DNA of 38,575 bases from Bacillota bacterium (lineage in GTDB: Bacteria; Bacillota; Clostridia; Christensenellales; CAG-138): positions 1 to 38,575 of the forward strand of contig JAEWWD010000090.1 in NCBI GenBank assembly GCA_023396535.1, in the 5' to 3' direction. Below are positions 1-18,772 of this stretch, in pieces. A program made the position numbers and the translations under genes. Each line of letters opens with the position of its first letter. Position 1 is the stretch's first letter. Under the pieces are notes generated by a model that worked only from the letters and a program-made list of their open reading frames with translations, was not told the origin of the DNA and made no database searches.

Positions 1-27
1 TGGGTTCAAGTCCCATCTACCGCACCA
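1..27 (+). tRNA. 3' end of a tRNA gene (T-arm, acceptor 3' strand, encoded CCA). The 5' part lies outside the window.
   Basis: The sequence tGGGTTCAAGTCCCATctaccgcACCA has a canonical GGTTCAAGTCC T-stem/loop, a 7-nt acceptor strand, discriminator A and an encoded CCA. A hairpin plus T-tract follows at 57-82. The isotype cannot be assigned without the anticodon. Confidence 0.8.
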
Positions 28-204
28 AATAGAGACGTAGGTCTTGATACAATGAGAAAGCCCAGTTATTCTGGGCTTTTTTGTTGTTTTGGATAAAAAG
101 CTGATGGCGTTGGAGAGGCGATTTCCAGATTCGCACATACCATCGTCGAAAGGTTTGCACATCTCTGCCGATTTTTGCAATCTTTCGTCAAAAGGTGCAC
201 ACAC
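28..204 (+). repeat. Intergenic repeat family 1, copy A (directly abuts the tRNA 3' end)
   Basis: Copy A shares ordered blocks with copies at 1901-2143 and 7835-8038. The blocks are GTCTTGATACAATGA-AAAG, a hairpin, GCACA-N4-ATCGTNNAAAGGTNTGCAC, GCCGATTTT and CTTTCGTCAAAAGGTGC. Confidence 0.75.
57..82 (+). terminator. Rho-independent terminator downstream of the tRNA
   Basis: Stem aaagcccag (57-65) pairs with ctgggcttt (71-79), with loop ttatt. The T run extends to 82. Confidence 0.7.
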
Positions 205-396
205 ACTCCTTGCGGTTATCAAGGATTACATGATGTTTCATTATATGGGGAATACGTGCTCTGCATATCGCTTGTACGTGAACGATCTTATTCGAAACCC
301 CTTCGCGCAAAATATGTCTACTTTTATCGGCGTTTTTAATGTACACTTATAATAATGGATATAAGAGAATGTATTTGAACGAAGGGAAGTATCGCT

Positions 397-1557
397 ATGA
401 ATAGCTATGAGCGGGTACAGGCAACGCTTGCCCATAAGGAACCGGATCGTATTCCATTTGATCTTGGATCGACGCTGCAAACGGGCATGAATATCAAGAC
501 CTATCGCCGCTTGCGGGAATATCTTGGCATGCCGGCCGTGCGGGATAATATCATAAACACGGATCAACAGCTTGCGCAAATCGATGATGATATGATTGAC
601 AGGCTCAAGGTGGACGTGCGGGCGATCGAACCCAAGCCGCCACTCAATCGCGGCTGTAGCACGGACGTCTCTCGGGATGGCGAGAGCTATCGCTTTCGGG
701 ACGAATGGGGTATCGATTGGAGAATGCCTATCGTAGGCGGGCATTATTATAATCTGGAGAACTCCCCGCTTGATGAAGCGGAAACACTCGAGGATATGTC
801 TGGATACCGGTGGCCAGATGCGGTGGACCCGGGCCGATTCGCCACCATGCAAGAGCAGGCGGAGCGGTATTTGAAGATAGAAAAACGGGCATGTGTGTTG
901 GGCCGTCTGGGCGCGGGCGTGCTGGAAATAGCGCTTTGGCTAAACGGATACGAAAAGTTCTTTTGCGATATGCTGAGCAATGAAAGGTATGCGCAGGACA
1001 TATTGGAAAAGATAACGGATCTGAAGCTCCAATATTGGGGAAAAACGCTGGATGCGGCGGGCGAAAATGTAATGATCGCGATGGAGGGCGACGATCTCGG
1101 TACACAAAGCAGTCTATTGATCTCGTCAGAGCTCTATAATCGCATGGTACGTCCCTGCCATAAGAGAATCTTCGATTTTATTCATTCTCGGGCGAAAGCG
1201 CCGGTTTCTGTTTTCTTTCATTCCTGTGGTGCTGTCAAATCCCTTATTCCCGGCTTTATCGAGGATGGCGTGGATATTTTGAACCCTGTGCAGATCAACG
1301 CGCAAGGTATGGATCCCATTGCACTGAAAAAGGAATTTGGGCGGGATGTGACGTTTTGGGGCGGCGGCATAGACACCCAGATTATACTGCCAAACGCTTC
1401 GCCGGAGAAAATCCGCGACGAGGTCAGGCGTACAATTGAAATACTGGCGCCGGGTGGCGGTTTTGTGTTTACACCGGTACATAATGTGCAGAGCGATGTA
1501 CCTGTGAAAAACTATATGGCGATGTGGGAAGCGTTGCAGGAATATGGAGCATATTAA
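397..1557 (+). CDS. Uroporphyrinogen decarboxylase (URO-D) family protein, MtaA/CmuA-like methyltransferase type
   Basis: 386-aa ORF. The N-terminus MNSYERVQATLAHKEPDRIPFDLG is typical of URO-D/MtaA-like proteins. Length and the C-terminal GGGFVFTPVHNVQSDVP motif fit the family TIM-barrel. A GAAGGGAAG RBS lies upstream of the ATG. Confidence 0.7.
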   Translation: MNSYERVQATLAHKEPDRIPFDLGSTLQTGMNIKTYRRLREYLGMPAVRDNIINTDQQLAQIDDDMIDRLKVDVRAIEPKPPLNRGCSTDVSRDGESYRFRDEWGIDWRMPIVGGHYYNLENSPLDEAETLEDMSGYRWPDAVDPGRFATMQEQAERYLKIEKRACVLGRLGAGVLEIALWLNGYEKFFCDMLSNERYAQDILEKITDLKLQYWGKTLDAAGENVMIAMEGDDLGTQSSLLISSELYNRMVRPCHKRIFDFIHSRAKAPVSVFFHSCGAVKSLIPGFIEDGVDILNPVQINAQGMDPIALKKEFGRDVTFWGGGIDTQIILPNASPEKIRDEVRRTIEILAPGGGFVFTPVHNVQSDVPVKNYMAMWEALQEYGAY

Positions 1558-1900
1558 TTCATGACTATTCGGAACGTTGGGATTATTAATATTTGCTCGG
1601 GCTTGGCGGCTTGTAATTAGTGCTATCCCTTGGCTCGAGCAAGCTGGAGAATCGACGCCATCAGGAATGCCCCTGAGCCTGCACGCTCAATATCCCTGTG
1701 CAAGTTTGACAACTAACACAGGGAATAGAAACTATAGAGTCCGGATATGTGTTATACGGACGGGTTCGGCTATTCGGGAATTCGTCAACAAAGAAAATCT
1801 CAAGGCCAAAGAAGTCTTGAGGAGCTTGAGATTATCATAAGATAACCATCGACCCCTAAAGACGGAATTGATGTGTTGGAGATGGAGGGGCTCATACTAT

Positions 1901-2143
1901 ACCTACGTCGAAAGGTATGCATATCTCTATAAGTAGGTAGGCATCGTCAAATTGTACAAAATCTACGCCATTAGCCAAAAAAGACGCAAGTCTTGATTCA
2001 ATGAAAAAGTCCAGAGATTTTGGGCTTTTTCGATATTTTGGGAGAAATGGGGTAGCTTTTATCCGGCATTTTCCGCTTTGCACACGACATCGTCAAAAGT
2101 ATGCACACCCCCGCCGATTTTGGACCTTTCGTCAAAAGGTTCC
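1901..2143 (+). repeat. Intergenic repeat family 1, copy B (a partial unit tail at 1901-1960 followed by a full unit)
   Basis: 1961-1980 (ATCTACGCCATTAGCCAAAA) aligns with the tRNA end and spacer of copy A. 1983-2143 carries the same ordered blocks as copies A and C, including a wobble-containing hairpin (aaagtccag/ttgggcttt) and TTTTGGGAGAAATGGGGT. Confidence 0.7.
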
Positions 2144-2387
2144 CCAATATTTCTGCACGTCTTGAAACTGTATATCTATACTTGTTTGATAGTAGTGCCT
2201 TGATAGCGCTTTGCTCTACACATTGTAGAAGTAGAAGTGTATCACTCAATATTTGGCCTCATTCTGAACAGACGCCTGTGCTAGAGATAGCCCGAGTATG
2301 AGCAATTTTCCATTTCAAGATGAGGGCCTCCCTCCTCCGAGTCCCCAAGACTATTCTGTCATTCTCACAAGAATCGATATCTTAATG

Positions 2388-2417
2388 TTGACGATTATTT
2401 TAGTGGTAAGGTATACT
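2388..2417 (+). promoter_or_regulatory. Sigma-A-type promoter candidate for the signalling cassette
   Basis: TTGACG (2388-2393), an 18-nt spacer, then TATACT (2412-2417), about 110 nt upstream of the CDS in an AT-rich gap. It is flanked by three ATCGAT-centred palindromes. Confidence 0.4.
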
Positions 2418-2527
2418 AGATAAGTTATATAATATCGATTCGTTTAAAGTTTCTTCGCTATATATCGATATTGGTATAGTATTAGAAGAGTCTGTTCTAC
2501 CCAGGATTTATGAGGGGAAGTCTTGAA

Positions 2528-3799
2528 ATGGGCTATGATTTTAAATCTATCGGGGAAGTATTATTATACATAAAAAATCAAGATATCACAAATATTGATG
2601 AGCGGGCCGAGATTATTCAAGATTTTGTTGATAGTGAGAACAGAAAAAACGGTAATGCCCATGATCGATATCTGGAAAACGGTCCATCAACCCTTATGAA
2701 TGTTATTACAAAACATTCCGGCCAGAAAAAAGAGTGCATTTTATGGTGCGTCAATCATTATCTGAGCTTAAACAGAAATCCGAAGGTTATTGAAAAAGCT
2801 TGTTCTGCGCTGCACCAATATGGTACAGGATGTGGGACGTCCGCTGTATCCTGCGGAATGAGCTCTTTACATGGACAAATAGAAAAAAGAATTGCCGAAC
2901 TCATCGGTAAAGAAGATGCTGTTGTTTTCCCAACGGGATTTACAACAAATCTTGGTTCGATTTCTTTTATCGCCGGTAATAAGGATATGATCATTTTTGA
3001 CAGGGAATGTCATTCATCTATAATTAACGGGATCAAATTGTCTGGAGCAAAATGGATTTCATTCAAGCATAACAATGTACTTGATTTAGAACAAAAGCTA
3101 AAAAGATTCGAAAGTTCCTTTGAAAATATCTTTATTGTTGTTGAATCAGCCTATTCAATGAGCGGGGATCTATGCCCGATCAAAGAAATTACAGGTTTGA
3201 AGAAATCGCATACTTTCTATACATATGTAGACGAAGCACATAGCTTTGGGATCTACGGGGACAGAGGACAAGGATATTGCTATGAGCAGGGCGTCACCGA
3301 TGAAGTGGACTTTATTATTTCAACATTATCCAAAGCGACAGCGTCCATAGGCGGGTTCTTTGCGGCGAAACAAAAATATTGTTCCTTGATGAGATGGACA
3401 GATGCATACATGTTTCAGGCATGCTTGACACCGGCGGATGCGGCTGTCGTACTTGCCTGTCTTGACGAAATAGAACTAAACCCCAACATGATTCAAGAGC
3501 TTCACGCCAAAAACCGTTATATGCGTAATTTACTTTTATCAAAAGGCTTTAATCTTGGAAACAGCAAAAGTCCGATAATTCCGATCATGATCGACGACCA
3601 TAACAAATTAAGAATCGTTGTTGATGAACTCTACCAGGAAGGTATTTATTCAACACCGATTGTTTATCCTGCGGTTAAAGTTAACGAAGGTAGAATACGG
3701 CTTATTTTGAATTGTTCACATACCAAGGAGCAGATCGACTACACGGTTGAAACGCTGGAAAAGATATGTAAAGAATACCAGATAATTGACAGGGGTTAA
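2528..3799 (+). CDS. PLP-dependent alpha-oxoamine synthase family enzyme (BioF/Kbl/SPT/CqsA superfamily). Context suggests a CqsA/LqsA-like signal synthase.
   Basis: Family motifs are all present: NHYLSL, GTGCGTS, FPTGFTTNLG, DRECHSSIING, VDEAHSFG and the PLP-lysine motif STLSKA (Lys codon 3332-3334). I prefer the start at 2528 because a GAGGGGAAG RBS lies 7 nt upstream. The ORF-track ATG at 2510 is the alternative. Confidence 0.8.
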   Translation: MGYDFKSIGEVLLYIKNQDITNIDERAEIIQDFVDSENRKNGNAHDRYLENGPSTLMNVITKHSGQKKECILWCVNHYLSLNRNPKVIEKACSALHQYGTGCGTSAVSCGMSSLHGQIEKRIAELIGKEDAVVFPTGFTTNLGSISFIAGNKDMIIFDRECHSSIINGIKLSGAKWISFKHNNVLDLEQKLKRFESSFENIFIVVESAYSMSGDLCPIKEITGLKKSHTFYTYVDEAHSFGIYGDRGQGYCYEQGVTDEVDFIISTLSKATASIGGFFAAKQKYCSLMRWTDAYMFQACLTPADAAVVLACLDEIELNPNMIQELHAKNRYMRNLLLSKGFNLGNSKSPIIPIMIDDHNKLRIVVDELYQEGIYSTPIVYPAVKVNEGRIRLILNCSHTKEQIDYTVETLEKICKEYQIIDRG

Positions 3800-3801
3800 A
3801 G

Positions 3802-6666
3802 ATGCGGCTACATCCGTTGAGCCTAAGTTTCGAGGATTGCGCATTAGAAAACGAATTCAAGGCTTACTACGACTACGAAAACAGGATTTTTAATCGAATC
3901 GGAATCGGGCTTTCCTTTATGGGATGGTTCGTTCTTAATATCTATTTCTATTTTTTCTACCCTCAAGATTTTCTGCACCTGACGCTGGTCATCGATGTCT
4001 TACTGTATCCGGTTTTCTTCGTTATATTTCTGATAACAGCCTTTCCGGGCAAAATAAAATACTACCAGCCTTTAACTTCACTCGCCAACTGCCTTGCCGG
4101 GCTAATGTTTATATATGTGGCTTATTACAAGCTGAGTATCGATGTTCTATCTATCTGCGGTATCATGGCGGTAATTTTATTCGCCTTTTTCATTTTGCGG
4201 CTCAGGTTTAAAATTGCGCTGCTTACTACTCTTATCTATGTTATCGCCTATCAGGCTGCGATACTGCTGCTGCCGGTCCATGAAAACAGCAATAGGACCC
4301 TGCTCTCCGTTATCGTATGGGTTATTGAAACCGTTTGCATTGTGGGCGGATACAGTATGGAACGAAGTAACCGTAAAATGTTCTGCCAAACTAAGGAGAT
4401 TATTCATCAGCAGCAAGTGGCTGAGGCGGCGACACGGGCTAAAAGCGAGTTTTTGGCGAACATGAGCCATGAAAGCAGAACACCCTTAAATGCGATTATC
4501 GGGATGACCTATCTGGTGCAGAGAACCGATTTGAGCACGCAGCAAAAGGATTATGTGGCGAAAATCCAATCCTCCGCGCAGACGCTTCTAGGAGTTATCA
4601 ATGATATTCTGGATTTTTCCAAAGTGGAAGCCGGCAAAATGGATATTGAGACGGTTGAGTTCGATTTAGACGAAATACTGACCAACCTGGCCAACCTGTT
4701 TAATTTGAATGCCCAGAAGAAAGGCATCGAGCTGCTTTTTCAATATACGGCGGATGTACCGCAGAATTTAAAGGGCGATCCGCTTCGGATTGGACAAATT
4801 TTGACAAACCTGATCAGTAATGCGATCAAGTTCACCGATCAGGGTGAAATTACCGTTAAAATTGAGCCTTTGCTAAAGAACATGGATGAAGTCACCTTGC
4901 AATTTTCGGTCAGCGATACCGGCATTGGCATTTCCAAAGAGCAGCAAAACAAGCTGTTTCAGCCTTTCAGCCAGGTGGACGCTTCCACGACGCGGAAATA
5001 CGGCGGAACCGGTCTGGGTCTGGTCATTTGCGAACGGCTGGTCAATCTGATGGGCGGTAAGATCGGGTTTGTGAGTGAGCCGGATAAAGGCAGCACATTT
5101 TTCTTTACAGTCAAGCTCGGATGCGGTAAGCCCACAAAAAGCGATTTCACCGCCCTGACTCGACCGGACGGTGAAAATATAAGGGTTTTGGTCATTGATG
5201 ACAACCCTGTCGTGGTTGAGATTCTGATACGCATGCTTGAATCTATGCATTTATCAGCCGTGGGGGCCTGTTCCGGGGAGGAGGGACTGGCCGCGCTCAA
5301 GGATCCGACTCATACGATCGATCTGGTGCTCATGGACTGGGAAATGCCCGGTATGGACGGTCTGGAAACAACCCGCCGTATCCTGTCGATGGATGAAATA
5401 AGCTTTATGCCTAAGATCATCATGATTTCGTCCTGTGTTCTGTCTGAAATGGACGAAGAGGCCAGTCTGATCGGGATCAATAGACGTCTGACCAAACCCA
5501 TAATACAATCCCAGCTGCTTGACGCCGTGTTGAATGTATTTGGCGCAGGCAGCGAGAAATCCCTTGCTTGCAGCCGAAATGACCTTGAAGGATTGATTTC
5601 TGATCGGACGACGGATTTCAAGAGGGCAAAAATTCTCTTGGTTGAGGACAACGAAATCAACCAGCAGGTAGCAAAAGAAATGCTGCACCATATGGGGGTA
5701 CAGGTACATATTGCGTCAAATGGATTACAGGCCATAGATATGCTTGGCGGCGCTGAATACGATGTTGTTCTGATGGACGTGCAGATGCCCGTGATGGATG
5801 GCTATGAAGCAACGCGTCAAATTCGGAGCAACGACCGTTGGGCAGACCTGCCGGTGATTGCAATGACCGCCCATGCCAGGCGCGAAGATCGGGAAAAGAG
5901 CCTTCAGGCCGGTATGAACGATCAGGTAAACAAACCGATTAACCCGAACGAACTTTCGGCGGCTCTGGCAAAGTATATCAGGACGAAAAGCTGGGGAAAT
6001 TCCGGCGCCATTAAATCATGCCCTGAGGAAGAGGCAAAAGATCCGCCTTGGCCGAACATGCCAAGTATCAAGTATACTGAAGGACTATCCAGGTTGGGCG
6101 GCAACCAGGAGCTTTATAAGAAGCTGCTCGTCCAATTTCGTACCGGCAATATTGACACGCCGAATAGCATAAAAGCAGCCCTGGCCCAAGGCGATGGCAA
6201 GACGGCAGGCAGGCTGGTTCATACTGTCAAAGGGGTGGCTGCCAATATTGGAGCAAATGAGCTTGCATTTGCCGCTGCCGAGCTGGAGATGGCAATGAGA
6301 AATGGTACTATTGCTGACAGCGATGTTCTTCTGGAAAAATTCATCTCATCCCTTGCGTTAGTAACAGACGAGATAAGAACATTTGAGGATGCGATGGCTA
6401 TCAAACCGGATTTTGAATTGCGCGACACGGCAACAGTATGTGTCAATGTAGATGCTGTACAGCAACACCTGATCAATCTGGCGCGAATGCTGGAGAGCGG
6501 CTCGATAAAATCTGTACAGGAACTAAGTGCTCTGGAAGGTTACTTTAAAGATAGCAGGTTAGAAAAACAGTTTGAACAGATGGAAAAGCAAGTTGATATA
6601 TTCGACATGGACAGCGCTCTGGGAGTACTGAGGGCGATTGCCATAGAACTTGGAATATCTTTATAG
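3802..6666 (+). CDS. Hybrid sensor histidine kinase: 6-TM membrane sensor, HisKA, HATPase, REC, REC, HPt
   Basis: 954 aa, starting 2 nt after the upstream stop. There are six hydrophobic segments in aa 33-186 with very short loops. H-box SHESRTPLN (His223, 4468-4470). N/G boxes NLISNAIKFT, DTGIGI and GGTGLGL. Receiver Asp512 (5335-5337) and Asp659 (5776-5778). HPt motif HTVKGVAANIG (His807, 6220-6222). Confidence 0.9.
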   Translation: MRLHPLSLSFEDCALENEFKAYYDYENRIFNRIGIGLSFMGWFVLNIYFYFFYPQDFLHLTLVIDVLLYPVFFVIFLITAFPGKIKYYQPLTSLANCLAGLMFIYVAYYKLSIDVLSICGIMAVILFAFFILRLRFKIALLTTLIYVIAYQAAILLLPVHENSNRTLLSVIVWVIETVCIVGGYSMERSNRKMFCQTKEIIHQQQVAEAATRAKSEFLANMSHESRTPLNAIIGMTYLVQRTDLSTQQKDYVAKIQSSAQTLLGVINDILDFSKVEAGKMDIETVEFDLDEILTNLANLFNLNAQKKGIELLFQYTADVPQNLKGDPLRIGQILTNLISNAIKFTDQGEITVKIEPLLKNMDEVTLQFSVSDTGIGISKEQQNKLFQPFSQVDASTTRKYGGTGLGLVICERLVNLMGGKIGFVSEPDKGSTFFFTVKLGCGKPTKSDFTALTRPDGENIRVLVIDDNPVVVEILIRMLESMHLSAVGACSGEEGLAALKDPTHTIDLVLMDWEMPGMDGLETTRRILSMDEISFMPKIIMISSCVLSEMDEEASLIGINRRLTKPIIQSQLLDAVLNVFGAGSEKSLACSRNDLEGLISDRTTDFKRAKILLVEDNEINQQVAKEMLHHMGVQVHIASNGLQAIDMLGGAEYDVVLMDVQMPVMDGYEATRQIRSNDRWADLPVIAMTAHARREDREKSLQAGMNDQVNKPINPNELSAALAKYIRTKSWGNSGAIKSCPEEEAKDPPWPNMPSIKYTEGLSRLGGNQELYKKLLVQFRTGNIDTPNSIKAALAQGDGKTAGRLVHTVKGVAANIGANELAFAAAELEMAMRNGTIADSDVLLEKFISSLALVTDEIRTFEDAMAIKPDFELRDTATVCVNVDAVQQHLINLARMLESGSIKSVQELSALEGYFKDSRLEKQFEQMEKQVDIFDMDSALGVLRAIAIELGISL

Positions 6667-6679
6667 TGGGAAATAAAAA

Positions 6680-7762
6680 ATGACTTTATTTGCAGAACAA
6701 AAACGAATACTGGTTATCGATGATACGCCGGAAAATATTCATATCCTGATGGAAATACTAAAGGATCAGTACGATGTCTCAGTAGCGATTAACGGAGAAA
6801 GAGCCCTGAAAATCGCTGCCATGGATATGCCCGTGGATCTGATATTGCTTGATATCATGATGCCCGAAATGGACGGATATGAAGTATTTTCCAAATTAAA
6901 AGCCAATCCGAAAACCGCAAACATCCCTGTGATCTTTGTCACGTCTTTGGCTGCAGTAGAGGATGAAGCCAGAGGCCTGGATATGGGCGCCGTAGATTAT
7001 ATATCCAAACCGTTTAATCCCGCGTTGGTCAGGGCCAGAGTTAAAAATCACCTGGAACTAAAAAATTATAGAGATAAACTGGAATACATGGTGCGGGAAA
7101 AAACAAACGAATTGATGATTACACGCGATGTCACGATTGAAACGCTTGGTTCTTTGGCTGAATTCCGTCATCTCGAAACAGGAAACCATATTAAGCGTAC
7201 TATGAATTATGTCCGTCTTTTGGCCGAAAAGCTCCAAGACCACCCTAATTATAAAGAATTTCTGGATGACGAGACGATAGAACATCTTTGGAAGTCGGCA
7301 CCATTACATGATATAGGCAAAGTGGGCGTGCCGGACAGTATTCTGATGAAGCCGGGCAAGCTGACGCCGGAGGAGTATACTGTCATGCAAAAACATGCCG
7401 TCTACGGCCGGGATGCCCTTGCCGGCGCCGCGTCTAAACTTGGCCCCAATTCATTTCTCAGTATCGCGCAGGAGATGGCATATACACATCATGAAAAATG
7501 GGACGGCACAGGCTATCCGCAAGGCCTTATAAGCACATCAATTCCAGTTTCCGGGCGGCTGATGGCAGTGGCTGACGTCTATGATGCCTTGATTACCCGA
7601 CGCGTCTATAAACCTGCCTTTTCCCAGCACGAAACCGTCGATATCATAGCCAATGACAGCGGCAAAGCATTTGATCCTGATATTATAAGAGTATTTCTTA
7701 AATATGCGGATCGTTTTTATCGTATTGCCCTGGACTTTGCCGATAAAATGGTTGAGAAATAG
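6680..7762 (+). CDS. Response regulator with HD-GYP output domain (RpfG-type c-di-GMP phosphodiesterase family)
   Basis: 360 aa. REC domain (ILVIDDTPEN, LLDIMMPEMDG, FVTS, ISKPF) followed by HD-GYP motifs (HLETGNHIKR, LHDIGKVGVPD, HHEKWDGTGYPQGL). Confidence 0.9.
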   Translation: MTLFAEQKRILVIDDTPENIHILMEILKDQYDVSVAINGERALKIAAMDMPVDLILLDIMMPEMDGYEVFSKLKANPKTANIPVIFVTSLAAVEDEARGLDMGAVDYISKPFNPALVRARVKNHLELKNYRDKLEYMVREKTNELMITRDVTIETLGSLAEFRHLETGNHIKRTMNYVRLLAEKLQDHPNYKEFLDDETIEHLWKSAPLHDIGKVGVPDSILMKPGKLTPEEYTVMQKHAVYGRDALAGAASKLGPNSFLSIAQEMAYTHHEKWDGTGYPQGLISTSIPVSGRLMAVADVYDALITRRVYKPAFSQHETVDIIANDSGKAFDPDIIRVFLKYADRFYRIALDFADKMVEK

Positions 7763-7834
7763 TGCAATTGCAGGAGCGGAACCCGGCCTCCAGGTCCTCG
7801 CCGACCGGTAATTGTATAGCTTATCAGAAAACGC

Positions 7835-8038
7835 CAAATTGTATCAGAACCTACGCCGTTAGTCATAATAGAACGCAGGTCTTGATACAATGAAAGCCTC
7901 CAGAGTTTCTGGAGATTTTCCGCGTTTTGGGGAGAAATGGGGTCCCGTTTGAGCGCCGATTTGCGGCCTTGCACATAGTATCGTAAAAAGGTATGCACGC
8001 CTCCCGTCGACTTTTGGGACCTTTCGGCAAAAGGTGCG
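7835..8038 (+). repeat. Intergenic repeat family 1, copy C
   Basis: CAAATTGTATCAGAACCTACGCCGTTAGTCATAATAGAACGCAGGTCTTGATACAATGAAAG, then a hairpin (ctccaga/tctggag), then TTTTGGGGAGAAATGGGGT, GCACATAGTATCGTAAAAAGGTATGCAC and CTTTCGGCAAAAGGTGC. It is colinear with copies A and B. Confidence 0.75.
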
Positions 8039-8132
8039 CCCTTTTAGGTTTAGTCCCCCACACGGGCAGAAGGTTGAGCGCAGGGTCTATAAGTGATACA
8101 ATAGTACCGATCACGTTCATACTCTTTTTGGG

Positions 8133-10727
8133 GTGGGGCATTTGTCCGATTCAACTCTTATCAAAACCAAATACTGCATCCCACGTGCAAATCCGAGCAC
8201 GATATTGCGTGAACGGATGCTCGAAAAGCTGGATCATGCGCTTGAGCGGATGCTTACGCTGGTTGTAGCGCCGATGGGATACGGCAAGACAACAGCGGTT
8301 TATGAATGGGTGGAAAAATCGGGATTGCAAGCGGCATGGCTTTCGTTGGACGAAAGCGATAATGATCCGATCGTTTTCTGGAAGTACATTTGCGCAGCGA
8401 TGGAAAAAATCCTTCCTGGAGTTGCGAACGATGTCCAATATGCTTTTTCTTCGTATCAGCTAATGGAAGCGAACGTTCCTGTCAACATCCTCATCGACAG
8501 ACTGGCGCAACACGGCGGCAAAGCGCTGCTCGTCATAGACGATCTGCATACGATCTCGAACGCGCAAATATTAAAAGGGCTTTCACATCTTCTTGAATAT
8601 CTTCCCGCAAACGCGCATGTGATTATCATAAGCAGGGCAGAACCTGCGATGGAGCTTCATAAGTTTGAATTGCGCTCTCAGGTTTTACGCGTTACCGCAG
8701 CTGACCTTCGGTTTCGGCAGGATGAAATTGCTGATTTCTACCTGAAGCGCGAGTGCACGTTCGGCAAGGAAATTATTGAAAAGATCGGCAGTTATACGGA
8801 GGGCTGGGCCGCGGCCATGGTTGCCCTTGCTGTATCGGCGCAGAACGATTGCATTAACAGCGCCCTGCTTAACGGCATAGCGGCGACAAACGCCGACGTG
8901 TATCAATACCTGATGAACGAGGTCTTTGAAACGTATCCCCCTGAAAAGAAGACATTTTTGCTTAAAATCTCCATATTGGAGTTTCTGCAACAGGATATTT
9001 GCAGCGCCATAACCGGCGAAGATAACGTTACGCGTTTTTTTGAGGATATGAGCAAAAGGAACGAGTTTGTGACCTTGCTCAGCGATGAAAGCAGCGTCTA
9101 TCGGCTGCATCCGATTTTGAAGGACTTCCTGCTCAAAAAACTCAGGCAAGACGATCCTGACGCGTATGCAGAACTGCATACGAAAGCGGCGCTGTGGTAC
9201 CGCGAGCGGGGTATGCTGCCGCTCGCCATTTCGCATTATTTGGGCGGCGCGCGGTACGCGGAGGCCTTCGAACTGATCGAAATGCAACTGGGCAATTTTG
9301 CGAGCAAAAACGAATATGAAACCGCGCATTCCTGGATCGAGCAGCTTCCTGCGCATTATAAGCACAAAAGCGTCAAGATCGCGGTGTTTTATTCCATGTA
9401 CTCCGCGCAGCGGCGGGACTTCGAAGCATCCCACAAATGGCTCGCCCGCGCCAGGAAAATACTGGCGCATGACCAAAGGGGAGAAAGTGGCATGCAGGAT
9501 TGCGCCTTGGTCGGCCTTACGGCGGTCAATCTGCTGCTCAGGGAAGGCAATGCGGCAGAACTTCTTAGACTCATCCGAAGCAATGAAATCCGCAACAACA
9601 ACACATTCGGAACCGTTGAATATATGGATTTGAACGATTCGGCTATCTATATGTACCGAAGCCCGGTCCATATCATGGTAAAGCTGTTTGAGATGGACCG
9701 CGATGCGCTTTATAAGCTGCGGGACTATCACGGCATCCTGTCCACAAAGACTCCGGGGTTTGTTCCCTTGGCGGCCGGAGAATATCTTTATGAAAAGAGC
9801 AGGCTTGAGGAAGCGCTGCCATTGTTCTTGCAGGCGATTGAAGCCGCGCGGCCGCTCAATTATCCGGGCGTGCTGGTCCCGGCAATGGTTGGTATTTCCC
9901 GCATAAAGAGAAGCAGGGCCGATATGGCTGGCGCTCTCGCCGTCTTGGAGGAATGCGAAAGCAGGCTTAAAATCATTCAAAAACCGCATTGGAATGACCT
10001 TGTGTCCGCGCTGAAAACGCGCTATTCCATCGAAACCGGTAACATGGATGAGGCGCAAAAGTGGATCCATGCCAATAAGCTGCACATATTCAGCGAAATC
10101 AAAAGAGTCCGTGAATTTGAGCTGATCGTACTTGCAAGGGCTTTATGGGCAAAAAAAGACACGAGCGACGCCGAACTGCTGCTGATGCGGCTTCTGCAGT
10201 TTGCACAGGCCGAAGGCCGTTTGCACAGCGAGGTTGAAATACTGAATCTGCTGGCGATGATAGCCTGCCAACAGGGCAATACCTCCCCTGCAGTTGTGTA
10301 CTTGGAGAGATCATTACGCATAGGGCTTGCCGAAGGCTATGTGCGCAGCTATATCGACGAACAGGCGCCGATGCTTACCGTATTGAAGCAGGCGATGCGC
10401 GCATTTAAAAAAACGGAGGAGGTAAGCCGGGAACTGGAGCGCTTTGTCGGTTCCCTCGTTTCGCTGCTTCAGGAGGAAATGAATGTGCCGCCCGGCGGCA
10501 GCACGGTCGGCAGCATGAAGTTAAAGAAGCTGCTGACCGCAAAAGAGTTTGAAGTGCTGGAATTGCTGTGTGCCGCACACTCGAACGAAGATATCGGCAA
10601 AAAGCTGAATATCGGCCAGCGCACGGTCAAGACGCACACGGGAAGCATTTACAACAAGCTGGGAGTCAAGACCCGCGCCCAGTGCGTAAAGCTGGCGTAT
10701 GAGGAAGGGCTTTTGCTATCGGATTAG
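8133..10727 (+). CDS. LuxR-family transcriptional regulator of the MalT/LAL type (N-terminal ATPase, helical/TPR-like middle, C-terminal LuxR HTH)
   Basis: 864 aa with a GTG start. N-terminus LIKTKYCIPRA, Walker A VVAPMGYGKTT and Walker B LLVIDDLH. C-terminal HTH is LTAKEFEVLELLCAAHSNEDIGKKLNIGQRTVKTHTGSIYNKLGV. Confidence 0.85.
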   Translation: MGHLSDSTLIKTKYCIPRANPSTILRERMLEKLDHALERMLTLVVAPMGYGKTTAVYEWVEKSGLQAAWLSLDESDNDPIVFWKYICAAMEKILPGVANDVQYAFSSYQLMEANVPVNILIDRLAQHGGKALLVIDDLHTISNAQILKGLSHLLEYLPANAHVIIISRAEPAMELHKFELRSQVLRVTAADLRFRQDEIADFYLKRECTFGKEIIEKIGSYTEGWAAAMVALAVSAQNDCINSALLNGIAATNADVYQYLMNEVFETYPPEKKTFLLKISILEFLQQDICSAITGEDNVTRFFEDMSKRNEFVTLLSDESSVYRLHPILKDFLLKKLRQDDPDAYAELHTKAALWYRERGMLPLAISHYLGGARYAEAFELIEMQLGNFASKNEYETAHSWIEQLPAHYKHKSVKIAVFYSMYSAQRRDFEASHKWLARARKILAHDQRGESGMQDCALVGLTAVNLLLREGNAAELLRLIRSNEIRNNNTFGTVEYMDLNDSAIYMYRSPVHIMVKLFEMDRDALYKLRDYHGILSTKTPGFVPLAAGEYLYEKSRLEEALPLFLQAIEAARPLNYPGVLVPAMVGISRIKRSRADMAGALAVLEECESRLKIIQKPHWNDLVSALKTRYSIETGNMDEAQKWIHANKLHIFSEIKRVREFELIVLARALWAKKDTSDAELLLMRLLQFAQAEGRLHSEVEILNLLAMIACQQGNTSPAVVYLERSLRIGLAEGYVRSYIDEQAPMLTVLKQAMRAFKKTEEVSRELERFVGSLVSLLQEEMNVPPGGSTVGSMKLKKLLTAKEFEVLELLCAAHSNEDIGKKLNIGQRTVKTHTGSIYNKLGVKTRAQCVKLAYEEGLLLSD

Positions 10728-10751
10728 TCCCGTCGCAAAACAAACAGAAAT

Positions 10752-10795
10752 AAAGCTTGCGGTATCGTACCTTTGTACGATGCCGCAAGCTTTTT
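10752..10795 (+). terminator. Rho-independent terminator after the LAL regulator gene
   Basis: 19-bp stem aaagcttgcggtatcgtac / gtacgatgccgcaagcttt (one G-U pair), loop cttt, then a T run. Confidence 0.8.
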
Positions 10796-10912
10796 GCTGT
10801 GCTACCATTTTAAGCGGTATGGTACGAATCGGGGGAATTGCATCGAATGCCTGTCAAAGAACCCCGCCAGGCGCGAAAGTATATGCCGTTATATAAATTG
10901 GAGGAAACGCAA

Positions 10913-13900
10913 ATGAAAGCAGCGAAAAAATCACTGGCGCTTGTGCTGATCGCATTAATGGTATTGACGATGCTGCCGCAGCCGGCGCGGGCTGCGGATT
11001 ATACCGTCAGCAATCAGGAAGATTTGGATGACGCGTTGGAAACAATACCAGCCGGCGAGACGGCAACCATTAATTTGGCGGGGAGCTTCGATTATCATGG
11101 CGGCCTCGTTATCGACGGCGGCCGCTTGATCACCTTTCTGCTGAACGATTATACGCTGAACATAATCAACGACGCGGGAACCGCTCTTGAAGTCAGCGAC
11201 TACGCCAGGGTGGCCTTTGACTGGGACCCCGGGGGAGAGGGCAAGCTCAACGCGATCAGCGAAGCGGAGGGTCATGGCGTGTCCGCCTACGATGGCGGAA
11301 TAGCGTTCGTAACCAACGCCACGGCGGAAAACGCGGGAGGAGGCGGCGGCGTAGCCGTCGCTGCGGCAGGTGCGGGCAGCCGGGTCACCCTGTATGGAGA
11401 TGCCAGCTGCACCAATCCTTACGCAATGTTCCCGGGAGCCGTACTGGCCGCCTCCGGCGCTGCCGTCGTGGTGGAAGGCGATGTGGTTTGCACCGGCAAT
11501 TTGGCTGATACTGAAGGGATGCTTGGCGTAGCGGCGGCGGACGGCGGCAGCGTGGAAGTGGAAGGCAGCGTCAGCGTATCGTACATTGATGACGCAGATA
11601 GTCGTCCGGGCGACATTTTCGGCGCGTTCGCTATGGCGGAAGGCACGGTCATAATCGAAGGCGATGTAACGGCGGACGGCGCGGGAACCATAACAGGCGC
11701 AGGGGCGATGGGAGGCACGCTCATAGTCGACGGCGATATAACGGCGGACGGCGACGGAGAGGTCATAGGCGCATTGTCTAAGTGGGGCGGCGCGGCGGTT
11801 CTCAACGGCTCGATCACTGTGCCCGACGGGGCGGCGGATATCGCGCTGGGCGACGACCAGGTGACCGACATCGAAGGCGTGCCGGGGGTATTGCCGGACG
11901 ACCTCCTAGACCTCTTGGAGGGATTCGATCGTTCGGATCTGGCTTCTGACGCTTATCTGGTTTACACCTGTACCGACGAGGTAGAGGGCGGCGGCGAAGT
12001 AGTAAGCTTCGTCTATGTGGAAACATTTGCGGGCCCGGCTTGCGCGATCGGCGATACGGAGTATAGCACGCTTGAAGCTGCGCTCGCCGACGCGGAGGAA
12101 GGCGAGGAAACGACCATCAGGCTCCTGCGGGATATCGATTATGAAACCGGTATTGAGGTGACCGGCAGAACCGTCATCTTCGACCTGAACGGGTGCGAGC
12201 TGTTTGTGTTGAACAGCGGTGGAAACGGGCTGACCGTAGGCGCGGGCGGCGTCGTGGATATCACGGATACCAGCGACGAAGAATACAGTGAACTCACTGT
12301 TATGAGCAGCAGCGCCTATGGCGTGTACGCCCATGACGGCGGGCAGGCGACAGTGACCACCGCGGGAGGCCAGCAGGGGGGTGTGTATGCCGCGGATGGC
12401 GCCTCCGTCCATGTAACAAACATAGCCTATGGAGTCGATACCGGCGTATTTGCGACCGGCGGCAGCACGGTAACGGTCGATTTTCAGATCGGCGTTATGG
12501 GGGAAGACGGGGTATATATCATGCTGGGGGACGTCGCGAAAAACTCGGAGGACGGCGCGATGGGAACGGCGCCCTATGAAAACTATCTGGTCTACTCGGA
12601 CGGAAGCGGCAACATTGTCCGCGTGAAAACGAACGCGGTCTGCAGGCTGAGCCTAACCACGGTTGATGGGACATATGTGAGCTTGTATGAGGAGATCGGC
12701 GATGCGCTCGAGGAAATGAATAGTACGCTGCCCGGCTCAACAGGAACCATCACGCTGTTTACGGACATCGAATACGATACCGGCATTAAAATCAACGGCA
12801 GGGCACTCACCTTTGACCTGAACGGGCATACGCTCAACGTAATTAGCAGCGTGGGTCACGCCCTTGAGGTCGGCAGCGGCGGCGTAGTGGAGCTGATTGA
12901 AAACGGCGGTGAGTTCAATGTCATCAGCGAAGCGTCCGGCTATGGCGTATACGCCCACGACGGCGGAAAGGTGGAAGTAACCAATGCGGAGGGCTTTATC
13001 GGCGCAGCAGCGCTTGGCGACAATAACTATGTGGAAATAGCAGGCAATGTCATAAGCAGGCAGAATGCCGTGCAGGTCGCGGGAGAACGCAATGTTGTAA
13101 TCGTTCGCGGGAACGCTTCCCTGTCCGGCGATGACCGGCCCAATACGGCCGGCATTGTCATCCAGGGCGGCTCCGATAGTACGGTTTTAGTAGGCGGCAA
13201 CCTGACGGTAACCGGTACGAACGCCACAGGCATATCGTTGATATTGGGCGGCTCAGTGATCATACAAGGCGAGTTCAGTGCGCCGGAAGAAGACTATATC
13301 ATGTTGGCTGCCTTGGATTCCGGCGGCGAACCCGTCCTTACATTCCCAACCGCCGCCGATGGTCTGACGGGGAAACTGCCTTCAGTGCTGTTGGCTCTGC
13401 TCGAACTGGATGATGCAGACTATCTGGTGTATACCGACGAAATCAACGCCGTCTACGTGAAAATTCCGGTGGGCGCCACGATCAGCCCGACCAGCGCGGC
13501 GTTTGACAAGAACCCGGCGGAGCAGGAGGACGTGACCGCGACGATCACATGGAACGACGCGGCGTCGGTGGCGGACGTGAAGGCGGGCGAAACTTCCATC
13601 GGGACGGGTAACTACAGCGTGAATGGGAACACGCTGACCGTCAAGAAGGAGTATCTGGCGACAAAGGCCGACGGCGACCTGGTTTTGACTGTCGAATTCA
13701 ACGACGGCGGTTCGGTGATGCTGACGATAACGGTCAGTGAGAGCACTACGAACACAGGTTCCGGCTCCGGCGGCAATGGCCCTGCGTACAGTAGCTGGAC
13801 ATTGACCGACAGCGCGACGGGTATCACGGTATCGGGCGACGACATCCACAGGATGGCGCGGCTCGCGGTTTCCCCGCTTAAGCTGCACTCCGCGGATACC

Positions 13901-14284
13901 TGCACGGCCTGTGACGCCATACGCAAGGCGCAAAAGGACGGCGATCTCATACTCGGTTATGATATCAGCCTAATTCCCGCTGCGACCGGCGAGCTTACGA
14001 TCTCCATCCCGGTGGGCAGCCAGTATAACGGCCGGACCTTGGTCATACTCCACTGCGTCAACGGCGGGCTGGAAACGATCATCGCAACGGTAGTCAATGG
14101 TGTGGCGATCTTCACCACCTCGTCGCTTTCGCCTTTCGCGGTGACCACCGGCCTGCTCATACCGGATGCCGCGGTGACCAACCCTCCCAAAACGGGAGAT
14201 GAAGCTTCGTCGTTCGGCCTCATCATATCCGGCCTCACGGTGCTGTGCGCGGGTTGGCTGATTATGAGGCGGCGCAAAGTATAA
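10913..14284 (+). CDS. Large secreted, sortase-anchored cell-surface protein with internal repeats (beta-helix-like Gly/Ala/Val/Asp-rich region and an Ig-like X2-type module)
   Basis: Signal peptide MKAAKKSLALVLIALMVLTMLPQPARA-ADY, with a GGAGGAAACGCAA RBS before the ATG at 10913. The ORF-track start at 10838 lacks these features. The C-terminal sorting signal is PPKTG (14183-14197), followed by a hydrophobic stretch and RRRKV. Three ~50-aa repeats are present (for example TIRLLRDIDYETGIEVTGRTVIFDLNGCEL and TITLFTDIEYDTGIKINGRALTFDLNGHTL). Confidence 0.85.
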   Translation: MKAAKKSLALVLIALMVLTMLPQPARAADYTVSNQEDLDDALETIPAGETATINLAGSFDYHGGLVIDGGRLITFLLNDYTLNIINDAGTALEVSDYARVAFDWDPGGEGKLNAISEAEGHGVSAYDGGIAFVTNATAENAGGGGGVAVAAAGAGSRVTLYGDASCTNPYAMFPGAVLAASGAAVVVEGDVVCTGNLADTEGMLGVAAADGGSVEVEGSVSVSYIDDADSRPGDIFGAFAMAEGTVIIEGDVTADGAGTITGAGAMGGTLIVDGDITADGDGEVIGALSKWGGAAVLNGSITVPDGAADIALGDDQVTDIEGVPGVLPDDLLDLLEGFDRSDLASDAYLVYTCTDEVEGGGEVVSFVYVETFAGPACAIGDTEYSTLEAALADAEEGEETTIRLLRDIDYETGIEVTGRTVIFDLNGCELFVLNSGGNGLTVGAGGVVDITDTSDEEYSELTVMSSSAYGVYAHDGGQATVTTAGGQQGGVYAADGASVHVTNIAYGVDTGVFATGGSTVTVDFQIGVMGEDGVYIMLGDVAKNSEDGAMGTAPYENYLVYSDGSGNIVRVKTNAVCRLSLTTVDGTYVSLYEEIGDALEEMNSTLPGSTGTITLFTDIEYDTGIKINGRALTFDLNGHTLNVISSVGHALEVGSGGVVELIENGGEFNVISEASGYGVYAHDGGKVEVTNAEGFIGAAALGDNNYVEIAGNVISRQNAVQVAGERNVVIVRGNASLSGDDRPNTAGIVIQGGSDSTVLVGGNLTVTGTNATGISLILGGSVIIQGEFSAPEEDYIMLAALDSGGEPVLTFPTAADGLTGKLPSVLLALLELDDADYLVYTDEINAVYVKIPVGATISPTSAAFDKNPAEQEDVTATITWNDAASVADVKAGETSIGTGNYSVNGNTLTVKKEYLATKADGDLVLTVEFNDGGSVMLTITVSESTTNTGSGSGGNGPAYSSWTLTDSATGITVSGDDIHRMARLAVSPLKLHSADTCTACDAIRKAQKDGDLILGYDISLIPAATGELTISIPVGSQYNGRTLVILHCVNGGLETIIATVVNGVAIFTTSSLSPFAVTTGLLIPDAAVTNPPKTGDEASSFGLIISGLTVLCAGWLIMRRRKV

Positions 14285-14296
14285 AGCAACATAGGG

Positions 14297-14345: not shown

Positions 14346-14400
14346 GCACATTTTTGCCGTTCGGCTCTTTCATTCTGAAAGAGGCTGTCACAGCAAAAAG

Positions 14401-14527: not shown

Positions 14528-14790
14528 TACGACTTTCAACATGATCTCTGCTGACAGGGGGTTATCGATACTCTGATGGACGAAGACACCATGTGCCTTC
14601 GTCCTTTGGCAATTTTTTGGGGATTTTTTCGCGTTTTGGGCTGTTGCCAGTCCGGAATGGCATGTCTTTTTGTGTTGGGATATTTTTCGAGTAAGAAGAG
14701 GGAATATAGCGACTGCCGTGCCCCATTCCGGCGCGTACTTCCTCAACTGAACGGAAGACGGCGCCAAGGTATCAATGGTTGGCCTCCGAA

Positions 14791-18764: not shown

Positions 18765-18772
18765 CACGCAAA

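What the first reader, a model, noticed from the sequence alone, without database searches (positions are those of the whole stretch)
1..8038. Gene modules next to a tRNA are bracketed by diverged copies of a ~170-240-bp unit that begins with a decayed tRNA 3' end
Seen in the sequence: copy A (28-204) directly follows a genuine tRNA 3' end. Copies B (1961-2143, preceded by an extra unit tail at 1901-1960) and C (7835-8038) are colinear with it.
- All three share GTCTTGAT(A/T)CAATGA-AAAG.
- Each has a hairpin at the same position but with a different sequence: A aaagcccag/ctgggcttt, B aaagtccag/ttgggcttt with G-U pairs, C ctccaga/tctggag. The structure is conserved while the sequence is not.
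- B and C share TTTTGGG(G)AGAAATGGGGT.
- All three then carry GCACA-N4-ATCGTNNAAAGGTNTGCAC, GCCGATTTT and CTTTCG(T/G)CAAAAGGTGC.
- Upstream of B and C, CTACGCC(A/G)TTAG(C/T)CA aligns loosely with the tRNA end CTACCGCACCA.
- A shorter, weaker fourth match lies at 14560-14640: GATACTCTGA, an unrelated hairpin at 14578-14604, then ATTTTTTCGCGTTTTGGG against C's ATTTTCCGCGTTTTGGGG.

The repeats partition the region into modules: the URO-D gene (A to B), the signalling cassette (B to C), and possibly the LAL regulator plus surface protein (C to the fourth match).

Inference: this looks like serial insertion at a tRNA 3' end, each event leaving a displaced copy of the tRNA end and its downstream terminator. 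Alternatively it is a dispersed repeat or small-RNA family. No integrase is visible, but the 5' side of the tRNA is outside the window.
Basis: partly seen in the sequence, partly recalled or inferred. Interest (0 to 1): 0.6.

Follow-up and report, generated by a model that had tools for sequence, protein, structure and literature searches.

The report
Cassette junction repeats beside a tRNA
Three diverged copies of a non-coding module divide the DNA downstream of a leucine tRNA gene into species-specific gene cassettes, and they look like the joined ends of recombinase-less mobile cassettes stacked at the tRNA's last two bases rather than decayed copies of the tRNA end.

Summary
The three units (A 28-204, B 1978-2143, C 7866-8038) are real homologues (nhmmer E 1e-49 to 1e-53). 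The proposed fourth copy (14560-14640) is not supported.

Each internal unit is a junction of two halves:
- RH is a conserved tRNA-trailer module: a small hairpin, ATACAATGAAAA, a covarying terminator hairpin, then 2-3 direct repeats TCGTCAAAAGGTnTGCAC.
- LH is a separate conserved end carrying one such repeat. Its last ~26 nt are the inverted repeat of the RH start.

The break point is the same in all copies, and the dyad axis lies on CA, the last two bases of the tRNA's CCA.

In relatives, RH directly follows whole tRNAs (Glu, Leu, Met, Ala), genuinely displaced 12-23-nt tRNA ends, or LH. It occurs in 22 of 240 family genomes. LH resembles no tRNA end better than chance.

Cassettes between junctions are species-specific, and no integrase is nearby.

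Best reading (about 0.5): attL-like (tRNA|RH) and attP-like (LH|RH) junctions of recombinase-less cassettes accreted in tandem. The enzyme is unknown; a paired large serine recombinase found near junctions in relatives is only circumstantial. I rate it a new variant of tandem accretion, of moderate interest.

The parts
1..27 (+). 3' end of tRNA-Leu(GAG); the rest of the gene is on contig C42, which overlaps window 1-35
   Evidence: ARAGORN on C42 (4211-4293) and the exact 35-nt contig overlap
28..204 (+). Copy A, an RH half only (tRNA|RH, attL-like). Hairpin 1 at 32-36/41-45; ATACAATGAGAAA; terminator hairpin 54-66/70-82 plus T-run; direct repeats TCGTCGAAAGGTTTGCAC at 143-160 and TCGTCAAAAGGTGCACAC at 185-202
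205..349 (+). Extension of RH seen only in the subfamily A / G001-131k / G001-tRNA-Glu. It ends in blocks identical in all three copies: AAAATATGTCTA, TTATCGG, ATGTACACTTA. Non-coding (indels break any frame); possibly a promoter or operator for whatever cargo follows
   Evidence: BLAST matches; three-way alignment
397..1557 (+). Cassette 1 cargo: URO-D family protein (386 aa)
   Evidence: Pfam PF01208, E 2e-24; no DNA match in G001, G015 or G004
1903..1977 (+). LH of junction B, the right end of cassette 1. Subterminal repeat ACGTCGAAAGGTATGCAT at 1905-1922; terminal arm ..TCGTCAAATTGTACAAAATCTACGCCATTAGCCA ending at 1977
   Evidence: LH profile E 1.4e-16 and E 1.1e-08
1978..2143 (+). RH of junction B, the left end of cassette 2. 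Hairpin 1; terminator hairpin 2003-2013/2021-2031; repeats near 2091 and at 2129-2144
2510..7762 (+). Cassette 2 cargo: class I/II aminotransferase-fold enzyme (2510-3799), hybrid histidine kinase with Hpt (3802-6666), REC-HD-GYP-type regulator (6680-7762)
   Evidence: Pfam; no DNA match in relatives
7795..7865 (+). LH of junction C, the right end of cassette 2. Inverted-repeat arm ATTGTATCAGAACCTACG at 7838-7855; ends ..GTTAGTCA at 7865
   Evidence: LH profile E 1.5e-12; inverted repeat 18 nt, 83% complementary
7866..8038 (+). RH of junction C, the left end of cassette 3. Arm CGCAGGTCTTGATACAAT at 7874-7891; terminator hairpin 7892-7904/7908-7920; repeats at 7981-7998 and 8024-8041
   Evidence: folds as a long LH/RH hairpin plus terminator, z -3.56
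8133..14284 (+). Start of cassette 3 cargo: MalT/LuxR-type regulator (8133-10727) and beta-helix/CBM_X2 surface protein (10838-14284). No right-hand LH was found anywhere in the contig
   Evidence: Pfam; LH scans
14560..14640 (+). It is not a member: an unrelated terminator between convergent genes, sharing only a T-rich TTTTCGCGTTTTGGG tail

Best explanation
The units are recombination-site junctions between horizontally acquired, recombinase-less gene cassettes stacked head to tail immediately after tRNA-Leu(GAG).

Anatomy of a cassette:
- Left end, RH: 3-5 nt, a small hairpin, ATACAATGAAAA, an intrinsic terminator, about 50 nt, then 2-3 direct repeats TCGTCAAAAGGTnTGCAC.
- Right end, LH: one such repeat, about 25 nt, then an arm that is the inverted repeat of the RH start.

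Layout of the array: tRNA|RH-cargo-LH|RH-cargo-LH|RH-cargo. In site-specific-recombination terms, tRNA|RH is attL-like and LH|RH is attP-like. The solo LH followed by unrelated DNA at the far end of the G001 array is attR-like.

Strand exchange is inferred to occur at, or within a base or two of, the dinucleotide CA. CA is both the centre of the ~54-bp dyad and the end of the tRNA's CCA. A new cassette therefore lands between the tRNA and the resident RH and pushes older cassettes outward.

RH is also the conserved trailer of several island-hosting tRNAs in this bacterial family, so it probably forms the right half of the target. The terminator in RH insulates each cassette from read-through.

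The enzyme must act in trans and is not identified.

Shown: the anatomy, the precise shared break point, the dyad on CA, hairpin covariation, the distribution of RH, cassette variability, and the absence of tRNA-end repeats and of nearby recombinases.

Inferred: that the junctions arise by site-specific recombination, the order of arrival of the cassettes, and any role of serine recombinases.
For: 1. Precise modularity. Ten copies anchored at the junction all break after the same CA. RH occurs alone after whole tRNAs, LH occurs alone before unrelated DNA (G001 C1, 110.5 kb), and the two occur together at internal junctions.
2. Inverted repeat. rc(LH end) matches the RH start at 16-21 of 26 nt, with best register at offset 2 in 4 of 5 junctions. 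That places the axis on CA (shuffle p <= 0.005 in four).
3. LH belongs to the cassette on its left. The LH arm mirrors the RH at its own cassette's left end at least as well as the RH it abuts in all 5 cases. In G066, where the two RH types differ, the score is 21/26 versus 15/26.
4. Same layout in three further genomes. G001: tRNA-Glu|RH, then LH|RH, LH|RH, then LH|, all on one strand. G066: tRNA-Leu|RH, then LH|RH, then RH. G015: tRNA-Glu, a 3.9-kb cassette, then LH|RH.
5. Cargo is accessory.
  - Window 200-20199: only dispersed repeats and the units themselves match G001 DNA.
  - G001 cassettes at 110.5-155.9 kb have no G000 orthologues, while the flanks are core genome.
  - G001 cargo includes CBASS and TIR-HD genes.
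6. Not local duplications. A, B and C are 75-78% identical to each other but 82-84% identical to a G001 copy.
7. Multiple tRNA hosts. RH abuts the CCA of Leu, Glu, Met, Ala and one more tRNA, in 22 of 240 genomes and 11 of 50 genera. This needs a site-specific process.
8. Tandem accretion of elements that have lost their integrase (CIMEs) is a documented route to such arrays (PMC5704250).
Against: - No recombinase lies in or beside the array in G000. C42 and C162 have none, and the whole assembly has one full-length tyrosine recombinase hit (plus a short fragment), no serine recombinase and no rve transposase. The assembly is only about 88% complete.
- In six other RH-bearing genomes, none of 39 tyrosine-recombinase hits lies near an RH or LH.
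- No free element carrying LH|RH as an attP was found in the phage, plasmid, viral or metagenome collections.
- The window has no terminal LH after copy C.
- Intact attP-like internal junctions are not what simple attP x attB exchange by a large serine recombinase produces.
- Only one case (G066) is really informative for point 3 above.
- RH might be conserved for an RNA-level function unrelated to recombination.
Confidence: 0.5

Rival explanations
1. Campbell-type homologous insertion. Circular or incoming DNA carrying an RH-like stretch recombined with the resident RH behind the tRNA by ordinary homologous recombination. Each event duplicated RH and left cargo between direct repeats, with no dedicated recombinase.
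For: - RH gives 170-340 nt of homology.
- The window array ends in an RH with no terminal LH, as this model predicts.
- G000 has almost no recombinases.
Against: - It does not explain why RH begins exactly after the CCA of five different tRNAs.
- It does not explain the origin of LH, its inverted-repeat relation to RH centred on CA, or the solo LH at the end of the G001 array.
- The copies are only 75-78% identical to one another and are closer to copies in another species.
Confidence: 0.15
2. RNA-level or regulatory module. RH is a functional tRNA 3' trailer, terminator and insulator, possibly also a small RNA or a protein-binding leader. LH|RH forms a double-hairpin operon boundary. Copies persist at operon borders because they are useful, and the array reflects shuffling of operons with their boundary elements rather than a dedicated mobility system.
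For: - Both hairpins covary, some with G-U pairs that work on this strand only.
- The C junction folds into a long hairpin plus terminator with z -3.56.
- All copies are co-oriented with the flanking genes.
- RH is the native-looking trailer of tRNA-Glu(CTC) in about 7 genomes.
- The RH extension ends in invariant blocks just upstream of unrelated cargo genes.
Against: - Unrelated tRNAs do not share trailers by descent.
- Function alone does not explain the precise LH/RH break point, solo halves, or restriction to variable regions.
- There is no Rfam family.
- Predicted sigma-70 promoters lie outside the units, at variable distances.
Confidence: 0.15
3. One reading: classical serial integration by tRNA-targeting tyrosine integrases. 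Each event leaves a displaced copy of the tRNA 3' end plus the downstream terminator, and those copies have since decayed.
For: - This process does operate in the family. At G001 C2 the order is tRNA-Leu, integrase island, 23-nt tRNA end, 21-nt tRNA end, RH.
- G101, G120, G103 and G052 have displaced tRNA ends followed directly by RH.
- G015 has an integrase remnant between tRNA-Glu and the cassette that ends in LH.
Against: - LH is no more similar to any tRNA end than shuffled sequence is.
- No tRNA-end repeat within 4-5 mismatches of 22 nt exists in the window, the G015 locus or the G001 C1 array.
- LH is conserved between arrays at different tRNAs in different genera, which independent decay cannot produce.
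- No integrase is nearby.
Confidence: 0.1

Closest known systems
Tandem accretion of integrative elements and CIMEs (cis-mobilizable elements; ICESt1/ICESt3 family of Streptococcus; review PMC5704250)
   Same: Arrays of elements at one chromosomal site, often a tRNA 3' end. Members have lost their integration and transfer genes but keep their end sites. The newest element lies next to the target, and internal junctions are chimeric att sites.
   Different: In CIMEs the att sites are direct repeats that include the 3' end of the target gene. Here no target repeat exists beyond CA. The ends are inverted repeats with a dyad on the tRNA's terminal CA, and no parental autonomous element has been found.
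Tycheposons and tRNA-seeded genomic islands of Prochlorococcus (bioRxiv 10.1101/2020.12.28.424599)
   Same: Cargo cassettes pile up next to a handful of tRNA genes, incoming elements push older ones further into the island, and degenerate remnants are scattered through the island.
   Different: Tycheposon boundaries are partial tRNA copies and the elements carry tyrosine recombinases. Here the boundaries are LH|RH palindromic junctions without tRNA copies and without recombinases.
SCC composite islands of staphylococci (CcrA/CcrB paired large serine recombinases; from general knowledge, not tested here)
   Same: Recombinase-less cassettes sit in tandem at a single chromosomal site, element ends carry imperfect inverted repeats, and mobilisation in trans is by a two-gene large-serine-recombinase pair. 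A pair of that kind lies within kilobases of junctions in G001, G066, G080 and G103.
   Different: SCC units are delimited by 15-18-bp direct repeats of the rlmH target. There is no such repeat here, the target is a tRNA trailer, and G000 has no serine recombinase at all. The link to the recombinase pair rests on proximity only.
Integron gene cassettes and attC sites
   Same: Co-oriented promoter-poor cassettes are separated by imperfect palindromes whose structure is better conserved than their sequence, and one recombinase serves many cassettes.
   Different: There is no intI next to the array, and no R''/R' GTTRRRY core by inspection. The break is at the centre of the palindrome rather than in R'. 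The cassettes are multi-gene with their own promoters, and the junction module is 240-400 nt long.

Membership tests
tRNA-targeting tyrosine-integrase genomic island | Integrase gene at one end of the island | tested here: not met
   No PF00589 hit on C42 or C162. None near RH or LH in six other genomes. Only G015 has a 99-aa remnant next to the tRNA.
tRNA-targeting tyrosine-integrase genomic island | Direct repeat of the tRNA 3' end at the distal boundary | tested here: not met
   None within 5 mismatches of 22 nt in the window. LH versus tRNA ends is at chance level. The positive control at G001 C2 has 23-nt and 21-nt copies.
tRNA-targeting tyrosine-integrase genomic island | Array starts at the 3' end of a tRNA gene | tested here: met
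   tRNA-Leu(GAG) abuts copy A.
CIME / tandem accretion | Elements lack recombination genes but are bounded by att-type sites, in tandem at one site | tested here: met
   Three RH and two LH halves bound cassettes that carry no recombinase.
CIME / tandem accretion | att sites match those of a related autonomous element | tested here: inconclusive
   No element with LH|RH next to a recombinase was found in the genome, metagenome, viral, phage or plasmid collections.
SCC-like composite island (paired large serine recombinases) | CcrAB-like recombinase pair present and acting on the junctions | tested here: inconclusive
   The pair is present near junctions in G001, G066, G080 and G103 but absent from G000. 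No arm sequences lie beside the pairs. Activity cannot be tested here.
SCC-like composite island (paired large serine recombinases) | Units delimited by direct repeats of the integration-site sequence | tested here: not met
   Only the dinucleotide CA is shared across junction types.
Integron cassette array | IntI integrase and attI at the head of the array; attC with R''/R' (GTTRRRY) cores | tested here: not met
   No integrase upstream. The arms read ATTGTATCA.AACCTACG / CG.AGGTCTTGATACAAT, with no GTTRRRY.
Tn7-like or other DDE transposon | rve-type transposase; subterminal binding sites inverted between the two ends | tested here: not met
   No PF00665 hit in G000 or G001. The TCGTCAAAAGGT repeats have the same orientation in LH and RH.
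MITE / REP-type dispersed repeat | Short non-autonomous unit inserted as a whole, many copies, no cargo between its ends | tested here: not met
   Only 3-6 copies per genome. The halves occur separately at a fixed break point, with kilobases of cargo between RH and LH.
Described RNA family (Rfam 15) | Match to a curated covariance model | tested here: not met
   No relevant match at E <= 1 in window 1-15000.

The most novel reading that the evidence does not exclude
A previously undescribed cassette system of gut-type Oscillospiraceae. Recombinase-less gene cassettes with RH...LH ends are inserted in trans exactly at the CA of the CCA end of selected tRNA genes. The recombinase, possibly a CcrAB-like pair of large serine recombinases, would recognise the conserved structured trailer rather than the tRNA body. 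The result is SCC-like or integron-like arrays of signalling, surface and defence genes.
Probability: 0.2. Interest if true: 0.75.

Novelty: new variant of a known kind. Interest (0 to 1): 0.5.

Why it matters
If the junctions are active recombination sites, they define a compact way for uncultured gut Clostridia to collect and exchange operons behind a few tRNA genes without each cassette carrying its own integrase. Examples of such cargo are quorum-sensing-like circuits, surface proteins, and the CBASS and TIR defence genes seen in relatives.

The target would be unusual. It would be the boundary between the tRNA's CCA and a conserved, structured trailer, with no target duplication.

There are practical uses too:
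- The RH and LH profiles give an annotation handle for island boundaries in fragmented MAGs.
- The ~54-bp palindromic site plus its recombinase, once identified, could be a new site-specific integration tool.

Even on the conservative reading, the work corrects the idea that these units are decayed tRNA ends, and it documents a family-wide tRNA-trailer motif with two covarying hairpins that is not in Rfam.

Tried and rejected
- Rfam scans of window 1-15000 and 14300-19000: nothing relevant.
- General tRNA-trailer hypothesis: only Leu-GAG and partly Glu-CTC of 34 tRNA genes in G000 carry RH.
- Sigma-70 promoter inside the unit: the predicted promoters lie outside the units at variable distances.
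- Small conserved ORF in the RH extension: rejected, because indels break the frame between copies.
- tRNA T-arm as a mirror half-site of RH: 13/26 for tRNA-Leu (p 0.004, best of 32 tRNAs) but at chance for Glu and Ala, so not general.
- Pattern scan of 185,579 species genomes: only G001 matched.
- Metagenome pattern scan: one chance hit inside a coding sequence.
- Viral contigs, phage and plasmid collections: no match.
- Empty-site test at tRNA-Glu (C109 versus G001): synteny stops about 60 nt after the tRNA, but G000 has a different island there, so no clean empty site.
- Right-hand boundary of the window array: not found. Only 25.05-29.45 kb has homologues in G001 and G080, and these are unlinked to tRNA-Leu.
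- Conserved gene next to LH or RH (a hidden recombinase): none; the flanking genes are diverse.
- LH/RH arms beside the serine-recombinase pairs: none.
- Two malformed tool calls and one over-length query (57) produced nothing.

Full report
**Setting**

- The window is a complete contig (C162) of a fragmented assembly: 328 contigs, about 88% complete.
- Contig C42 ends with a full tRNA-Leu(GAG) and overlaps window 1-35 exactly. It is therefore the left neighbour.
- The 4.3 kb of C42 hold housekeeping-looking genes and no recombinase.
- The closest genome with a name, G001, is an uncultured Oscillospiraceae MAG.

Yes for three copies.
- The repeat finder recovers them.
- MAFFT gives 79% mean column identity.
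- A profile built from them scores E 1e-49 to 1e-53 on exactly these three places in the whole genome.
- The hairpin claim holds formally on ten copies from three genomes: 97.7% of cells paired, 6 of 13 pairs with compensatory double changes, 0-1 of 500 shuffles as good, and all slid registers collapse. With its T-run, this hairpin is a selected intrinsic terminator.

The fourth match (14560-14640) is not supported. RH and LH profiles find nothing there at E <= 5, and the covariance model finds nothing at E <= 1.

**Anatomy: two halves, not one unit**

Copies from G001 and G015, anchored on a common point, show that the unit has two separable halves that always meet after the same CA.

RH, to the right of the junction, consists of:
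- 3-5 nt;
- a short hairpin, present in about 23 of 31 copies, with at least six different stem sequences, some using G-T wobble pairs;
- (G/A)ATACAATGAAAA;
- the terminator hairpin and T-run;
- about 50 nt;
- 2-3 direct repeats TCGTCAAAAGGTnTGCAC (5 hits in the window against 0.13 expected).

In one subfamily (A, G001-131k, G001-tRNA-Glu) conservation runs on to about 340 nt. It ends in invariant blocks just before three unrelated genes.

LH, to the left of the junction, carries one copy of the same repeat in the same orientation, then about 25 nt, then ..CGTCAAATTGTATCA.AACCTACGCC.TTAG.CA.

The last ~26 nt of LH are the inverted repeat of the start of RH: 16-21 of 26 matches, with best register at offset 2 in 4 of 5 junctions. 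That places the dyad axis on CA. As RNA, the C junction folds into a long LH/RH hairpin followed by the terminator (z -3.56).

**The 'decayed tRNA end' claim fails**

- LH ends are very similar to each other (p < 0.001), but they are no closer to the 3' ends of tRNA-Leu, -Glu or -Ala than shuffled sequence is (p 0.16-1.0). A genuine displaced tRNA-Leu end scores p = 0.
- No copy of the host tRNA's last 22 nt exists within 4-5 mismatches in the window, in the G015 locus or in the G001 C1 array.
- LH is shared by arrays at tRNA-Leu (G000, G066) and tRNA-Glu (G001, G015). Independent decay of different tRNA ends cannot explain that.

**What true serial tRNA integration looks like in this family**

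At G001 C2 the order is:
- tRNA-Leu(GAG);
- a terminator and short direct repeats;
- a 395-aa tyrosine integrase, then a cI-like regulator, replication genes and a type I R-M system;
- an exact 23-nt copy of the tRNA end;
- about 120 nt;
- a 21-nt copy with two changes;
- RH, immediately after.

G101, G120 and G103 have a 17-18-nt tRNA-Glu end followed directly by RH, and G052 has a tRNA-Ser end followed by RH. It leaves recognisable tRNA ends, and it displaces RH. It does not create LH.

**Distribution of RH**

A covariance model of the RH core finds it in 22 of 240 family genomes (11 of 50 genera), with up to six copies per genome. The sequence to the left of RH is one of three kinds:
- a whole tRNA: Glu-CTC in about 7 genomes, Leu-GAG in 3-4, and Met, Ala-CGC and one other once each;
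- a displaced tRNA end;
- LH: window B and C, G001 twice, G015, G066, G080, perhaps G114.

Only 2 of 34 tRNA genes in G000 carry RH, so it is not a generic trailer.

A second RH type (GGTAATGACTCAGTCATTAATACAAT...) has its own subterminal repeat, TGAACCC, 4-5 times. G066's LH mirrors that type.

**Are the modules cassettes?**

- Window 200-20199 has no DNA-level counterpart in G001, G015 or G004 apart from repeats. Only 25.05-29.45 kb is conserved, and in G001 it is unlinked to tRNA-Leu.
- In G001, everything above tRNA-Glu and below 101.8 kb is core genome (75-93% orthologues in G000). The two junction-bounded cassettes (110.5-131.8 kb and 131.8-155.9 kb) have no G000 orthologues. Cargo there includes CBASS and TIR-HD genes.
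- A, B and C are 75-78% identical to each other but 82-84% identical to G001's tRNA-Glu copy. They are therefore not recent local duplicates.
- An LH arm mirrors the RH at the left end of its own cassette at least as well as the RH it abuts in all five cases. In the one informative case (G066) the score is 21/26 versus 15/26.

**Mechanism**

The simplest account treats RH and LH as the two ends of cassettes that enter by site-specific exchange at or next to CA, at the boundary between a tRNA's CCA and a resident RH. This gives tRNA|RH (attL-like), LH|RH (attP-like) and LH|flank (attR-like). The newest cassette lies nearest the tRNA, as in documented tandem accretion of integrase-less elements (PMC5704250) and tRNA-seeded islands (bioRxiv 2020.12.28.424599).

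The features that differ from those precedents are:
- no target duplication beyond CA;
- ends that are inverted repeats;
- a target that seems to be the trailer rather than the tRNA body.

**The enzyme is unknown**

- G000 has one full-length tyrosine recombinase hit (plus a short fragment, both on other contigs), no serine recombinase and no rve transposase.
- None of 39 tyrosine-recombinase hits in six other genomes lies near an RH or LH.
- A pair of large serine recombinases (441 + 533 aa in G001; Pfam Resolvase + Recombinase + Zn ribbon) lies within 4-27 kb of junctions in G001, G066 (two pairs), G080 and G103. Its closest clade (63-68% identity) is concentrated in genomes with LH-type junctions.
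- A central-dinucleotide crossover would suit a serine recombinase.
- Against that link: the recombinase family occurs in 81 of 240 genomes, no arm sequences flank the pairs, G000 lacks them, and subterminal direct repeats are not a known feature of such sites. I rate this link at about 0.15-0.2.

**Rivals**

- Campbell-type homologous insertion through RH fits the missing terminal LH and the lack of recombinases. It explains neither LH nor the exact CCA boundary at five tRNAs.
- An RNA-level or insulator function for RH and LH|RH fits the strand-specific covariation. It does not explain solo halves or the restriction to variable DNA.
- The two are not exclusive of the main reading.

**Limits**

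- Comparative data come from MAGs.
- No autonomous relative was found.

Noticed in passing
window ~14405-14521 and ~18564-18770 (core ~14427-14505 / 18564-18645): A separate high-copy intergenic repeat of about 80-135 nt. It contains CCCGAA.G.TACATTCGGG and GTGC.GCA..GC.GCA hairpins. It has about 40 matches at 80-91% identity scattered over G001 and about 5 in G015, on both strands. It is not in Rfam. It could be MITE/REP-like or an undescribed RNA motif.
   Followed up: partly
G000 contigs C68:12247, C71:3830, C250:7546, C58:2451, C199:8871, C222:7757, C303:17186, C323:10356: Other tRNA genes are followed, after a terminator, by other families of short tandem direct repeats. TGGCAAC..TGGCAAC follows Arg-CCT and Pro-GGG/CGG. 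GTTCGAAGGGCTCGAAGGGCGG follows Val, Lys and Leu-TAA. These look like arm-type sites of other integrated elements; C68 has an integrase fragment 220 bp from tRNA-Arg.
   Followed up: no
window 205-349: A non-coding extension of RH, conserved with two G001 copies. It ends in invariant blocks AAAATATGTCTA, TTATCGG and ATGTACACTTA just upstream of unrelated genes (URO-D here; a surface protein and a CD-NTase in G001). It may be a shared promoter or operator.
   Followed up: partly
G001 C2:143175-164310 (loci L049, L050): An intact-looking 21-kb island at tRNA-Leu(GAG): tyrosine integrase, cI-like regulator, replication genes and a type I R-M system. It is followed by two successive displaced tRNA-Leu 3' ends (23 nt exact, 21 nt with two changes), which is evidence of at least two classical integration events before RH.
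   Followed up: partly
G000 C109:1-2272 (locus L035): Downstream of tRNA-Glu(CTC) and a half RH, G000 carries a small island with an excisionase-like HTH gene, an SMR transporter, an AraC regulator and an IS200-type TnpA at the contig end. Synteny with G001 stops about 60 nt after the tRNA.
   Followed up: partly
G080 C23:61553 and G114 C1:666881 (loci L087, L092): Two RH copies have cleanly lost hairpin 1 (GGTAAT[GACTCAGTCATTA]ATACAATG becomes GGTAATACAATG). This looks like slippage-type deletion of the palindrome.
   Followed up: no
window 25050-29455: The only block of the window with DNA-level homologues in relatives (74% to G001 C12:33935-38345, 70% to G080 C4). In G001 it lies on a contig unlinked to tRNA-Leu, so even this conserved three-gene block sits in a different context.
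   Followed up: no
window 32987-33241 and 34067-34321: A 255-nt direct repeat at 75% identity, 1080 nt apart, probably in paralogous genes.
   Followed up: no
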